From an uncultured Gammaproteobacteria bacterium (GTDB taxonomy: Bacteria > Pseudomonadota > Gammaproteobacteria > Competibacterales > JAHEDQ01), in NCBI GenBank assembly GCA_963783675.1, contig CAWAOU010000027.1:13221-77220 (forward strand): DNA of 64,000 nucleotides. The letters run 5' to 3'. A program made the translations under genes and the position numbers. Of the stretch, positions 5,616-62,900 are shown piece by piece. The number at the start of each line of letters is the position of its first letter. Within the stretch, counting starts at the first letter, position 1. The notes below the pieces were generated by a model. It was not told the origin of the DNA and did not search any database. It saw only the letters and a list, made by a program, of their open reading frames with translations.

Positions 5616-6200
5616 GTGCAAGACCTGCCCACCGAACGGCCCGCGGCTGACTCGGTGGACCTGGGGCGCCGCCGGGCGCTCAAGGCCGCCATCTGCCTGG
5701 GCACGATTGCGATCGCACCTGTTTCGATCGCCTCAACAACCACGACCTTATCAGCTCGAAACCTGGCCCTGGTGAATATGCACACCGGGGAGAGCCTGGA
5801 AATCACCTACTTCGACGGGGATGACTATATCCCGGCCGCGCTAAGACGCGTAAACGAACTCATGCGCGACCATCGGGCCGAGCAAGTACACAACATGTCA
5901 ACCGTGCTGCTGGACGCGCTCCACGATCTTCGCACCAACATCGGCGCGGACCAGCCGTTTCAACTCCTGTCTGGTTACCGTTCGCCGCAGACCAATGCCA
6001 TGCTCCGGTCAAAGCGCGCTGGAGTGGCCAAACGCAGCTATCACATGCAAGGACTGGCCGCGGACATTCGGCTGCAGGGATTCAAACTGAGTGCGGTGCG
6101 CAAACAGGCGCTGGCATTGAAGGCCGGCGGGGTGGGCTACTACCCGAAGTCCGGCTTTATTCATGTGGATGTTGGGCCGGTGCGGGCCTGGCGGGGCTGA
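5616..6200 (+). CDS. YcbK/DUF882 family peptidase M15A-like protein with Tat signal
   Basis: N-terminal GRRRALKAAICLG twin-arginine signal. SYHMQGLAADIRL and GGVGYYPKSGFIHVDVGPVRAW are typical of the YcbK family. Confidence 0.8.
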   Translation: MQDLPTERPAADSVDLGRRRALKAAICLGTIAIAPVSIASTTTTLSARNLALVNMHTGESLEITYFDGDDYIPAALRRVNELMRDHRAEQVHNMSTVLLDALHDLRTNIGADQPFQLLSGYRSPQTNAMLRSKRAGVAKRSYHMQGLAADIRLQGFKLSAVRKQALALKAGGVGYYPKSGFIHVDVGPVRAWRG

Positions 6201-6235
6201 AACCCGGGTCAGCGAACCTCTTCGCTATGCCAATA

Positions 6236-6508
6236 CCTAGTGTCCCGTCCCATAAGTTCGTAGCGTTTCAGAGCGCCCCAGATACACCAATGCAAGGCGC
6301 AGGTGCGAAGGCATAGCCAGCTCTGTCAAGCAGCTGCAACGCCGCAGTGGCGTATCTGGGGCGCTCCCGACGGGCAAGGCGATAAGCGCCCATTCGCGGT
6401 GTTGGGCGCGCTTGAATGAGCGCAGGCTAGTCCTGCGCCCGCCCGCCTAGCGCCTGGGCGCTTCTCGCCTTGCTGATATGCAACGAACTTGTGGGACGGG
6501 ACACTAGG
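6236..6508. repeat. 273-bp MITE-like / highly structured element with 25-bp terminal inverted repeats
   Basis: cctagtgtcccgtcccataagttcg (6236-6260) is the reverse complement of cgaacttgtgggacgggacactagg (6484-6508) with 1 mismatch. There is an internal perfect 15-bp inverted repeat (6271-6285 / 6352-6366) and further 7-bp hairpins. No ORF. Confidence 0.65.
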
Positions 6509-6517
6509 GACACTCGC

Positions 6518-7180
6518 TCAAAAGCTCCAGAGCGGTTTGCGCGTCGACAAACTGGACGCGCAGGCTTGCAGTTGTGAGCGGTAGTCGTTGGACCGATTCT
6601 GGACTCTGCGCGCGGCCTGAAGCAGCCATTGCTTGTTGCGGTAGGTCCTACGCTCGTAGCCGCCGTGCCCTTCGTGGAATGCCAGATACTGGTTGTAGGC
6701 ATCGGATTTTGAGATGCCCAATCGTCGATTGCTTTGATGCCCATACCAACCAATGAAATCCACCGCATCGTCAAAGTCGTCCCGATCTGCGCCACTGTTT
6801 CCTGTGCTCTCTATGTACCATTCCCAGGTTCCGTCAATTGCCTGGGCATATCCGTAGGCCGAAGACGGTCGTTTCCACGGAATCACCCACAACAGTTTGC
6901 GCCGCTCCGGGCGCGCGTCGTCCTCGAACGAGGATTCCTGGTAGACAATGGCCATTTGCACATGGACCGGCACGCCCCATCGTTGTTGGCTGTCCAGCGC
7001 AGCGCGATACCAACCGGTTTTCTCCTCGAATATTGCACAACTGTTGTTGGGATTACGGGGCGGATTGCTGCCACAGGCGCTAAGCCACACAAGCGCGACC
7101 AACGATGCCGAAACCGCCAGGGCGATTTTCCCTGCACTCATTGGGCGCCAGCGCTTGGCTTTGTTTCCGTTTCGACGCAT
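6518..7180 (-). CDS. lytic transglycosylase-like lipoprotein
   Basis: Lipobox LVWLSAC. WGVPVHVQMAIVYQESSF resembles the SLT catalytic Glu-Ser motif. An alternative start is at 7141. Confidence 0.65.
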   Translation of the reverse strand: MRRNGNKAKRWRPMSAGKIALAVSASLVALVWLSACGSNPPRNPNNSCAIFEEKTGWYRAALDSQQRWGVPVHVQMAIVYQESSFEDDARPERRKLLWVIPWKRPSSAYGYAQAIDGTWEWYIESTGNSGADRDDFDDAVDFIGWYGHQSNRRLGISKSDAYNQYLAFHEGHGGYERRTYRNKQWLLQAARRVQNRSNDYRSQLQACASSLSTRKPLWSF

Positions 7181-28902: not shown

Positions 28903-29164
28903 GCCCCATAATCTCGGACACACCGAAAAAAAATAACAAGAGGCCCAGCATGATTTGCATCCAGTGTAGTGTCCCATAGGTTCGCTGTGTCTCAGCAAGG
29001 CGAGGAGCGGGCAGGCGCATTCAAGCGCGCCCAACATCGTAATCACACAGCCGATGACAGTGGCTGCCGCAGATAGCTGAGGTGCGGTTTGAGGTGGATA
29101 TCTGAGTTGTATCCGGCTCGATCAACAACCTTCCATGGTCCACCGTTTCACCCTCGGACCGACC

Positions 29165-42677: not shown

Positions 42678-43070
42678 GAGCAGCCAGCCAGTGTTCCGTC
42701 CCATTCCATAGACGAATCAGCAGATGCCCGACCGGTAGGCATGTTAAAATTGTGGTTAAGGAAGGTCTGAACGATTGCTTCGATCGCGCCGGCATCTTTC
42801 CGCTCCCTCGTACAAGGGCACTAAGTGTAGTTGGCCCAGGGCCGATAAGTGAGTTGCCAATGAGCGAGGTGCAACGCGGTACCAGGGGCGCAAAGGCCCG
42901 GCCCCTCCGGGGTTTCGCCCACAAGGGCACATCTGCCGCGTTTCCCGGCTTGGCCATAGAATGACTATGGCGCTGCGCCGGGAGCCTCGCATCTGCGCCC
43001 TTGTGGACCGAAACGCGATTCGTATCAATTGTTCAGACCTTCCCTAAACTACCAACGGGAAAGAAAGCAA

Positions 43071-61334: not shown

Positions 61335-61403
61335 GGCTTAACTCGGGTTGGGAATTTAGTGAATTGGAAACGTGCCACATAACGTCAAAGTTGAGTGGGG
61401 GTT

Positions 61404-62312
61404 CTACCCCGTCTCCACGGACGGTTTTAAAATGGCTGAAAACTTCTGATCTTGTGCAGCAACTCTACGCCGCATTCTGGAATTGTGAAATCGCTCAATG
61501 TAGTCGAACACATCAGCCCTGGCTTCATTCCGGGTGCGGTACCGGCGATGGTGAATCCTTTCGCGTTTGAGTACCCCGAAGAATCCCTCACACGCGGCGT
61601 TGTCGCCGCAATGACCTACAGCACTCATACTGCTGATCAAAGTGTTCTGCCCCAGGAACCGCTGGTAGTCGCCGCTAGTGAATTGGCAGCCTCGATCGGA
61701 ATGTAAAATCACCTTTGTGGCCTCCTGGCGCTGCCAGATAGCCATCTCAACCGCTCGAATGACCATGTGCCGATCCTGTCGATGATGCATCGCCCAGCCA
61801 ATGACAAGCTTGCTGAACAGGTCGAGAACGACGCACAGAAACAGCTTCCCTTCTAATGTCTTGATCTCCGTGATGTCAGTGACCCATTTGCTTTCCGGCT
61901 CCAATGCCGTGAAGTCCCGGCGCAGATGATTCTCAACGCCCGCGGGACGCATACTGGAACCTTTCCAGCGCTTGGGCTTTTTCCGTGGCCAGCCTTGTAT
62001 GTTGTGAGATGCCATCAGGCGTGCAACACGGTTCAAACTGGCTGTCTCACCCTCGGCAGCCAAATCCTCGTGCATACGCGGCGCACCAATTACGCCACCA
62101 CTGTCGTCGTGGATCTCGCGTATGCGTACCAGCAGACGCGCATTGTCCGATTCACGAGGACTCGGCTTGCGTGATACCCAAGCGTAATACCCGCTGGATG
62201 AAACATTCAGGCAGCGGCACATAAGACGAACAGGAAAATCATCGCGACAACGTTGGATCGCCTGATACCTCAGGACGATTCCTTCGCAAAGAACGTTGCC
62301 GCTTCGCGTAAA
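61404..62312 (-). CDS. IS3-family transposase OrfB (DDE), expressed by -1 frameshift from OrfA
   Basis: [30 protein letters not shown]...[10 protein letters not shown]...[16 protein letters not shown]. The -1 frame is open back to a T TTT TTA heptamer at 62309-62315. The ORF-track ATG is at 62222. Confidence 0.85.
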
Positions 62313-62563
62313 AAATCCCGTTCCTTCTTCACCCGCGCCAACTCGCGCTTGAGCCGGGCAACCTCCTCATCCCGAGGTGTGCCGGAGCCGCTGAACGCTT
62401 TGCCAGATACCGCACCGGCTTCACGTTTCCAGCGGCTCAGCAGATTGGGATTGATCCCGATCTCAAGCGCGACCTGGCGGCAACTCACCCCTGGCTGGCG
62501 AGTCAATGCAACGGCTTCTTGCTTGAACTCCGGGCTGTACTTTCTTCGCTTAGACATGAACAC
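62270..62563 (-). CDS. IS3-family transposase OrfA (HTH)
   Basis: [46 protein letters not shown] is canonical IS3 OrfA. Confidence 0.9.
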
Positions 62564-62900
62564 TCCTTCGGCACATTGTGCCTCTTCTTGGAAGTGTCCG
62601 TGTTAACGGGGTAGAACCCGTCCTTCAGACAGGTCAGTCGCGGTCAGGTAGGCGAGGAGTTGGTACAGGTCGCCATGCTGCAGTCCTGGCGCCCTGAGGC
62701 CCTTGTATTTGACGTCGCCAATAAAGTGGCAGATGCCCGCCCTCCCCCCAGCCGATGTCCGGCCTAAGGCGCACTGATTCGCCCTGGTCGAGGGTCAGCG
62801 CATGGCCAACGCACTCCTGCGGGAACGATCGCTGTGTAAGGTTAAGTTCTTCTCCTTAGGGTAAGGGTCAACGACCAGATAAGATCCCCGGGCAGGCTGT

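What the first reader, a model, noticed from the sequence alone, without database searches (positions are those of the whole stretch)
6236..6508. 273-bp element with 25-bp terminal inverted repeats and nested hairpins between convergent cell-wall genes
Terminal inverted repeats match at 24 of 25 positions (6236-6260 versus 6484-6508). They enclose a perfect 15-bp inverted repeat (gagcgccccagatac 6271-6285 / gtatctggggcgctc 6352-6366) and at least two more 7-bp hairpins (gcgccca...tgggcgc; gcgcagg-ctagt-cctgcgc). There is no ORF and I can see no target-site duplication. It fills almost the whole gap between the YcbK-like gene stop (6200) and the convergent lipoprotein gene stop (6518). It could be a MITE, a large bidirectional terminator/insulator, or a structured ncRNA.
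Basis: seen in the sequence. Interest (0 to 1): 0.65.

Follow-up and report, generated by a model that had tools for sequence, protein, structure and literature searches.

The report
IS630-type miniature transposon (MITE) insertion
The hairpin-rich 273-bp block is a 265-bp non-coding miniature transposon, moved by an IS630-family transposase, that recently landed between two cell-wall genes; it is a clean but ordinary example of a well-known kind of mobile DNA.

Summary
The inverted repeats are at the stated coordinates and are far beyond chance.

The element proper is 6240-6504 (265 bp).

A strain about 99.4-99.9% identical in DNA lacks the element. Its gap between the two genes is 51 nt, against 317 nt in the window. 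A more distant relative has a 54-nt gap.

Exact-pattern scans found the same 19-nt terminus at 87 distinct flanking sites in Competibacteraceae MAGs and metagenomes:
- Most copies are 265-266 bp and 97-99% identical.
- Shorter deletion derivatives also occur.
- Flanks read (C/G)C-TA on both sides.

One metagenome contig carries a 2,359-bp insertion sequence with 37-bp perfect terminal repeats and TA flanks. Its first 21 nt are identical to the MITE's left end. It encodes a 440-aa protein that passes the NCBIfam IS630-transposase cut-off.

There is no Rfam match, promoter or terminator.

Verdict: a MITE mobilised in trans by an IS630-family transposase, and a new member of a known kind. One unresolved detail is that the empty allele reads CCTAAGGG, one A more than a precise TA duplication predicts.

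The parts
6240..6504 (+). MITE proper: 265 bp, non-coding. It is 98.9% identical to the consensus of the young subfamily.
   Evidence: Boundaries come from the empty site in L001 and from alignment with 16 other full copies. Only the two 21-nt ends match the autonomous IS.
6238..6239 (.). Left flanking TA. This TA is present in the empty site and is one copy of the TA target duplication.
6505..6506 (.). Right flanking TA, the second copy of the duplicated TA
6240..6260 (+). Left terminal inverted repeat GTGTCCCGTCCCATAAGTTCG. It matches both ends of the 2,359-bp IS630-family IS in L035 at 21 of 21 positions.
6484..6504 (-). Right terminal inverted repeat GTGTCCCGTCCCACAAGTTCG, read on the - strand. 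It matches the IS end at 20 of 21 positions, and the single T-to-C difference is shared by the whole young subfamily.
6271..6366 (+). Internal hairpin arm A. The stem is 6271-6293 / 6344-6366. In copies L028 and L057 the loop segment is inverted.
   Evidence: 5 of 35 pairs show compensatory changes across subfamilies.
6374..6473 (+). Internal hairpin arm B. The stem is 6374-6397 / 6450-6473. It contains the small hairpins 6386-6392 / 6403-6409 and 6420-6426 / 6432-6438.
   Evidence: 0 of 39 pairs show compensatory changes, and the copies differ little.
5616..6200 (+). Upstream neighbour: MepK/YcbK-type peptidoglycan L,D-endopeptidase gene. It is not part of the element.
   Evidence: NCBIfam NF053624, 216.5 bits against a cut-off of 185. 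Pfam Peptidase_M15_2/3 is recorded for the same gene in L001.
6518..7180 (-). Convergent neighbour: SLT_4 (transglycosylase-like) lipoprotein gene. It is not part of the element.
   Evidence: Pfam PF19489
28964..29039 (+). Decayed, truncated remnant of the same MITE family. It keeps one degenerate end (16 of 21) plus the base of arm B.

Best explanation
Window 6240-6504 is a 265-bp miniature inverted-repeat transposable element (MITE). It encodes nothing.

Proposed mechanism: an IS630/Tc1-mariner-family DDE transposase, made by an autonomous insertion sequence elsewhere, recognises the 21-bp termini. It cuts the element out and pastes it into the TA of a CTAG-like site, and repair duplicates that TA.

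In the window's lineage the element recently inserted into the short spacer between the convergent mepK-like and SLT_4 lipoprotein genes. That is a harmless landing place where it disrupts no gene.

The two long internal hairpins and the paired ends make any transcript or single strand fold into a Y shape. I regard this as a property of the element, not a host function.

Shown here:
- The boundaries and the empty site.
- Many copies at different sites.
- The TA/CTAG flank signature.
- Termini identical to those of an IS that encodes an IS630-class transposase.

Inferred, not shown:
- That this particular transposase, or a close relative, actually mobilises the element.
- That such a transposase is present in the window's own genome.
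- That the insertion has little effect on its neighbours.
For: 1. Insertion polymorphism.
- L001 (GCA_942492415.1) is 99.9% and 99.4% identical to the window on the two sides of the site.
- It has the same 220-aa lipoprotein.
- Its intergenic gap is 51 nt, against 317 nt in the window, and the breakpoint falls exactly at the ends of the inverted repeat.
- A second sample also has a 51-nt gap.
- One Logan contig (L004) stops at the last base shared by the filled and empty alleles.
- A relative whose lipoprotein is 88% identical has a 54-nt gap and no element.

2. Many copies.
- The 19-mer GTGTCCCGTCCCAYAAGTT hits 7 contigs of two Competibacteraceae/Competibacterales MAGs and 92 metagenome loci.
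- These give 87 distinct 12-nt flanks.
- I aligned 16 other full-length copies: 13 are 96.6-98.9% identical to the window's, and three divergent ones are about 85%.
- Many contigs end inside the element.

3. Target signature across the 87 flanks.
- Position -1 is A in 76.
- Position -2 is T in 73.
- Position -3 is C in 79.
- Position -4 is C in 50 and G in 21.
- Because this holds at both ends, the target is the palindrome CTAG with TA on each side, the preference published for IS630. ISY100 likewise inserts at TA and duplicates it (PMC2170065, which cites Tenzen & Ohtsubo 1991).

4. Autonomous partner.
- L035 384-2742 is a 2,359-bp IS with 37-bp perfect terminal repeats and TA on both sides.
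- Its first 21 nt equal the MITE's left end.
- Its 440-aa ORF scores 132.8 bits on NCBIfam 'IS630 family transposase' (cut-off 100) and matches Pfam DDE_3 and HTH_32.
- The same IS is 100% identical in an independent run.

5. Deletion derivatives of about 93, 124, 160, 178 and 230 bp keep the same ends.
Against: - The empty allele reads CCTAAGGG. A precise TA duplication predicts CCTAGGG, so the net insertion is 266 nt, not 267. The cause is not resolved.
- No autonomous IS with these ends lies in the 64-kb window or in any fetched Competibacteraceae contig. The one found comes from a different metagenome of unknown taxonomy.
- The MITE interior has no similarity to that IS, so it is not a simple internal-deletion derivative.
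- Mobilisation has not been shown experimentally.
- Five compensatory pair changes in arm A hint that the hairpin is maintained, which a purely selfish, decaying element does not strictly require.
Confidence: 0.93

Rival explanations
1. It is a structured non-coding RNA gene or cis-regulatory RNA. The Y-shaped three-way junction would be the functional product, and mobility would be incidental.
For: - The fold is extremely stable (z = -16 and -13).
- 5 of 35 arm A pairs show compensatory double changes between subfamilies.
- The consensus + strand folds about 13 kcal/mol better than the - strand.
Against: - No Rfam family matches, even at E up to 10; only chance microRNA-precursor hairpin hits appear.
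- No promoter is predicted.
- It is present or absent between near-identical strains.
- Copies lie in either orientation within their contigs.
- Deletion derivatives that lose a whole arm persist.
- Arm B shows no covariation.
- Young copies accumulate uncompensated stem mismatches.
- Palindrome arms can also stay complementary through intramolecular recombination. The flipped arm A loop in L028 and L057 shows that such recombination occurs.
Confidence: 0.04
2. It is a host bidirectional terminator or insulator that separates the two convergent cell-wall genes.
For: It sits exactly between two convergent stop codons. Long GC-rich hairpins could impede read-through or protect 3' ends.
Against: - No hairpin-plus-T-run terminator is found on either strand.
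- The sister strain and a more distant relative manage with 51-54-nt gaps that lack it.
- The same sequence occurs at 87 unrelated junctions.
- Any terminator effect would be a by-product of the insertion.
Confidence: 0.02
3. The element is ancestral at this site and the short-gap strains lost it by deletion or excision. It might also belong to a different mobile class, for example a REP/BIME-type palindrome moved by a Y1 (RAYT) transposase.
For: The empty allele carries one extra A (CCTAAGGG) compared with a precise pre-insertion site. That could be read as an imprecise excision scar.
Against: - The outgroup L110 also has a short gap of 54 nt.
[quoted passage not shown] I infer that an excision scar would then retain element-end bases (G..C), not an A.
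- The termini are identical to those of an IS630-family IS, and the flanks are TA/CTAG, which is not RAYT/REP behaviour.
- Copies are 97-99% identical, which indicates recent spread.
Confidence: 0.03

Closest known systems
IS630 family insertion sequences (IS630 of Shigella sonnei, ISY100 of Synechocystis) within the IS630/Tc1/mariner superfamily
   Same: - The 21-bp termini equal those of an IS whose ORF passes the NCBIfam IS630-transposase cut-off.
- Copies are flanked by TA.
- The flanks show a strong CTAG target preference, as published for IS630. ISY100 inserts at TA by cut-and-paste and duplicates the TA (PMC2170065 and references in it).
   Different: - The window element has no transposase and is 265 bp.
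- The matching autonomous IS is 2.36 kb and carries an extra 261-aa HTH ORF. That is much longer than ISY100, which is 947 bp (PMC2170065), or the roughly 1.1-1.4 kb I recall as typical for the family (own knowledge).
Bacterial MITEs with TA duplication, such as Correia elements of Neisseria and the IS630-related Nezha MITEs of cyanobacteria (recalled from my own knowledge, not tested here)
   Same: - Small and non-coding, with terminal inverted repeats of about 20-26 bp and TA flanks.
- Tens of copies, mostly between genes.
- Transcripts fold into long hairpins.
   Different: - There is no sequence similarity to any record in the plasmid or phage collections.
- The interior holds two extra roughly 100-nt hairpins that form a three-way junction, where a single hairpin would be usual.
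- The hosts are Competibacteraceae.
Stowaway-type MITEs of eukaryotes, derived from Tc1/mariner elements
   Same: They share the superfamily logic: TA target duplication, short terminal repeats shared with a Tc1/mariner-class transposase source, and mobilisation in trans (PMC3814204 for the concept).
   Different: This one is prokaryotic, shares no sequence with them, and has a much stronger CTAG target preference.

Membership tests
MITE (miniature inverted-repeat transposable element) | Small (well under 1 kb) and without coding capacity | tested here: met
   It is 265 bp. Only chance ORFs of 41-46 aa overlap it.
MITE (miniature inverted-repeat transposable element) | Terminal inverted repeats | tested here: met
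   The 21-nt ends match at 20 of 21 positions and extend imperfectly to 32 nt. None is expected by chance.
MITE (miniature inverted-repeat transposable element) | Many copies at unrelated genomic sites | tested here: met
   There are 87 distinct 12-nt flanks in MAGs and metagenomes. A decayed second copy lies in the window itself. The copy number in the window's own genome could not be counted.
MITE (miniature inverted-repeat transposable element) | Target-site duplication and an identifiable empty site | tested here: met
   TA is on both sides in the window, and on both sides in 21 of the other 24 short full-length copies. The empty site in L001 breaks exactly at the element ends. Caveat: the empty allele has one extra A compared with a precise TA duplication.
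MITE (miniature inverted-repeat transposable element) | Ends shared with an autonomous element that supplies the transposase | tested here: met
   The IS at L035 384-2742 has a first 21 nt identical to the MITE's left end.
MITE (miniature inverted-repeat transposable element) | Actual mobilisation in trans by that transposase | not testable with these tools
   This needs a transposition assay. The only indirect support is the insertion polymorphism and the 97-99% identity among copies.
IS630 family (for the autonomous partner, and so for the MITE's mobilisation class) | DDE transposase of the IS630 type with an N-terminal HTH DNA-binding region | tested here: met
   NCBIfam NF033545 scores 132.8 bits against a cut-off of 100. 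Pfam DDE_3 (E = 1.6e-11) and HTH_32 also match.
IS630 family (for the autonomous partner, and so for the MITE's mobilisation class) | Insertion at TA with a 2-bp TA duplication | tested here: met
   The IS in L035 and nearly all MITE copies are flanked by TA on both sides.
IS630 family (for the autonomous partner, and so for the MITE's mobilisation class) | Preference for 5'-CTAG-3' targets (IS630 itself) | tested here: met
   C is at -3 in 79 of 87 flanks, read from either end. CTAG is itself about 8-fold under-represented in the window (29 observed, 228 expected).
IS630 family (for the autonomous partner, and so for the MITE's mobilisation class) | Typical length of about 1-1.4 kb with a single transposase gene | tested here: not met
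   The IS is 2,359 bp and has an additional upstream 261-aa HTH ORF. Homologues at 45-61% identity also sit on contigs of about 2.4 kb. This looks like a long sub-group and does not affect the MITE assignment.
Rfam RNA families | A score at or above a family's gathering threshold | tested here: not met
   There are no hits at gathering thresholds across the window. Only sub-threshold microRNA-precursor hairpin matches appear.

The most novel reading that the evidence does not exclude
The interior is kept folded because it matters. It consists of two roughly 100-nt hairpins plus the paired ends, which form a three-way junction.

The hint is that arm A keeps its stem through compensatory changes across subfamilies, and can flip its loop by recombination between its arms.

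Two forms of function are conceivable:
- The junction acts as an RNA that stabilises or processes the 3' ends of the flanking convergent mRNAs.
- It is a DNA or RNA structure that promotes the element's own transposition.

On this reading the family would be a mobile structured-RNA module and not inert junk.
Probability: 0.08. Interest if true: 0.5.

Novelty: new member of a known kind. Interest (0 to 1): 0.22.

Why it matters
This is mainly a matter of correct annotation. The block is mobile DNA, not a regulatory RNA or a terminator.

It does have some practical uses:
- It marks very recent strain-level variation in an uncultured Competibacteraceae-like wastewater or sediment bacterium.
- The family breaks metagenome assemblies; many contigs end inside it.
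- Filled and empty alleles could serve as strain markers.
- Its strict CTAG targeting, in a genome where CTAG is about 8-fold depleted, gives a tidy natural data set on IS630-type target choice.

It opens no long-standing question.

Tried and rejected
- Rfam at gathering thresholds over the whole window, and at E up to 10 over 6000-6800, gave only chance microRNA-precursor hairpin hits.
- blastn of the element against the plasmid and phage collections found nothing.
- The promoter and terminator scan found none.
- I looked for a transposase next to the MAG copies L008, L010, L011 and L013 and found none.
- tblastn of the L035 transposase against every fetched locus and the window hit only L035 itself.
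- I tried to settle the 1-nt discrepancy at the empty site with outgroups L109, L110 and L111. Their spacers are too diverged to align at the target.
- I considered a strand asymmetry in G-U pairs as evidence for an RNA. I dropped it because the two strands of the consensus have 6 and 5 G-U pairs.
- A 30-aa C-terminal peptide from a second IS type with the same terminus (L052, L083, L093, L095) gave no NCBIfam hit. Its IS630 identity rests only on my recollection of the family's C-terminal motif.
- A literature search for a described Competibacter MITE found nothing.

Full report
**1. The observation**

The sequence is as described.
- 6236-6260 and the reverse complement of 6484-6508 differ at one position. 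No such match occurs in 100 shuffles of the window.
- The repeat finder extends this outer pair to 36 nt at 89% complementarity (6236-6271 / 6473-6508).
- It also finds two long nested pairs: arm A (6271-6293 / 6344-6366) and arm B (6374-6397 / 6450-6473).
- Folded as one strand, the region forms a Y-shaped three-way junction. Energies are -187.7 kcal/mol (z = -16.3) on the + strand and -178.8 (z = -13.0) on the - strand.
- Only chance ORFs of 41-46 aa overlap it.
- The neighbours are a MepK/YcbK-type L,D-endopeptidase gene (NCBIfam, 216.5 bits against a cut-off of 185) and a convergent SLT_4 lipoprotein gene.

**2. Empty site**

I looked up contigs that encode exactly the same 220-aa lipoprotein. 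This returned L001 (GCA_942492415.1), where the two genes are 51 nt apart, against 317 nt in the window.
- L001 is 99.9% and 99.4% identical to the window on the two sides of the site.
- The alignment breaks exactly at the repeat ends:
  - empty: ...AATACCTA|AGGGACACTCGC...
  - filled: ...AATACCTA[GTGTCCCGTCCC...GGGACGGGACAC]TAGGGACACTCGC...
- The mobile unit is therefore 6240-6504 (265 bp), flanked by TA on each side.
- A second sample has the same 51-nt gap.
- Logan contig L004 stops at the last base shared by the filled and empty alleles, so both alleles probably coexist in that sample. L002 and L003 stop 26 nt inside the element.
- A relative whose lipoprotein is 88% identical (L110) has a 54-nt spacer and no element. 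The short gap is therefore the older state.

**3. Other copies**

A scan of one genome per species with GTGTCCCGTCCCAYAAGTT gave 11 loci. Seven lie in two Competibacteraceae/Competibacterales MAGs. They include:
- a 98.9%-identical copy at a contig start (L016);
- an 87.6%-identical copy at a contig end (L012);
- a 230-bp copy, 74% identical by BLAST across an internal deletion and 85.7% over the aligned positions (L007);
- a 93-bp mini-version (L009);
- truncated copies.

The same pattern in metagenomes gave 92 loci.
- In all there are 87 distinct 12-nt flanks.
- I aligned 16 other full-length copies. Thirteen are 96.6-98.9% identical to the window's copy. The other three are about 85% (L007, and L028 and L057 with a flipped arm A segment).
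- L066 is the window's own locus, recovered from a metagenome.
- Many contigs end inside the element, as expected for a dispersed repeat.
- A decayed fragment also lies in the window at 28964-29039.

**4. Target and family**

Across the 87 flanks, read towards either end, the counts are:

| Position | Base | Count of 87 |
|---|---|---|
| -1 | A | 76 |
| -2 | T | 73 |
| -3 | C | 79 |
| -4 | C / G | 50 / 21 |

This means insertion into the TA of a CTAG site, often CCTAGG or GCTAGC. CTAG is about 8-fold under-represented in the window, with 29 observed against 228 expected.

TA duplication is the established behaviour of IS630 and ISY100, and the CTAG preference was reported for IS630 (PMC2170065, citing Tenzen & Ohtsubo 1991).

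**5. The autonomous partner**

L035 has two hits on opposite strands that bracket a 2,359-bp element.
- It is an IS (384-2742) with 37-bp perfect terminal repeats and TA on both sides.
- Its 440-aa ORF passes the NCBIfam IS630-transposase cut-off (132.8 bits against 100) and matches Pfam DDE_3 and HTH_32.
- The MITE's left 21 nt are identical to the IS ends, and the right 21 nt match at 20 of 21. The interiors are unrelated.
- The same IS is 100% identical in an independent sequencing run.
- A second IS type with the same terminus is multi-copy in another metagenome.
- I found no such IS in the window or in the fetched Competibacteraceae contigs. The in-genome transposase source is therefore inferred.

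**6. Mechanism**

This is cut-and-paste transposition of a non-autonomous element by an IS630-family transposase supplied in trans, with integration at TA in CTAG and duplication of the TA. The spacer between two convergent stop codons is a neutral landing site.

The internal hairpins:
- Arm A keeps its stem through compensatory changes in 5 of 35 pairs between subfamilies.
- Arm B shows none in 39 pairs, and its copies differ little.
- Young copies carry uncompensated mismatches.
- Derivatives that lack a whole arm persist.
- In L028 and L057 the loop of arm A is inverted. Recombination between the arms therefore occurs, and this alone can keep palindrome arms complementary.

I therefore treat the fold as an element property. 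A host RNA function is not excluded, but nothing supports one: there is no Rfam hit and no promoter or terminator.

**7. Unresolved detail**

A precise TA duplication predicts an empty site of CCTAGGG. The observed empty allele is CCTAAGGG, so the net insertion is 266 nt, not 267.

Three possibilities remain:
- A 1-nt deletion created the rare CTAG target before insertion. I favour this, because the element is so strongly CTAG-specific that observing an insertion here already selects for such a site.
- The junction was repaired imprecisely. [quoted passage not shown]
- The empty allele is an imprecise excision scar. [quoted passage not shown]

The outgroup spacers are too diverged to decide.

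**8. Verdict**

This is a MITE of the IS630/Tc1-mariner class. It appears to be an undescribed family in Competibacteraceae-like bacteria, since a literature search found no report. It is a new member of a well-known kind.

- Confidence is about 0.93.
- Interest is low, at about 0.2.
- It is a tidy, recently active example with a very clean target signature, but it is not surprising.

Noticed in passing
window 28964-29039: A decayed, truncated remnant of the same MITE family. One degenerate end matches at 16 of 21 positions, followed by the base of arm B (81% identity over 48 nt and 92% over 25 nt).
   Followed up: partly
window 42756-43047: A second, unrelated MITE-like block of 292 bp in an intergenic region. 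It has 28-nt terminal inverted repeats (TTAAGGAAGGTCTGAACGATTGCTTCGA, 86% complementary) and internal GC-rich hairpins. A similar CAGACCTTCCC motif lies downstream of the lipoprotein orthologue in L109.
   Followed up: no
window 61399-62619: A 1.2-kb insertion sequence with 24-nt terminal inverted repeats. Its 272-aa ORF (61404-62222, - strand) scores 285 bits on NCBIfam 'IS3 family transposase'.
   Followed up: partly
L028 3829-4094 and L057 1788-2053: In these two copies the loop and distal part of arm A are the exact reverse complement of the arrangement in all other copies. This is a flip by recombination between the arms of the internal inverted repeat.
   Followed up: partly
L035 384-2742: The autonomous IS630-family element is 2.36 kb and has an extra upstream 261-aa ORF with weak HTH matches, which is unusually long for the family. 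Homologues of its transposase (45-61% identity) are common and mostly sit on contigs of about 2.4 kb, which suggests a distinct long sub-group.
   Followed up: partly
L052 14028, L083, L093, L095 (metagenome Ga0247727): A different multi-copy element shares the terminus (GTGTCCCGTCCCATAAGTTCA) with TA flanks. Its sequence reads straight into what looks like the C-terminus of a transposase (…PFVWTKSADDILASIARF…). The contigs end about 100 nt inside it.
   Followed up: partly
L011 2088-2118 and L008 430-456: The same terminus with a TA flank also occurs once each in an Acidobacteriota MAG and a Terracidiphilus MAG. It extends beyond the 19-mer searched (30 nt at 93% in L011). No transposase or second end is nearby. 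This could be a solo end, horizontal spread or bin contamination.
   Followed up: partly
window, whole 64 kb: CTAG is about 8-fold under-represented: 29 observed against 228 expected from base composition. Four of the 29 are created by or lie inside the MITE.
   Followed up: yes
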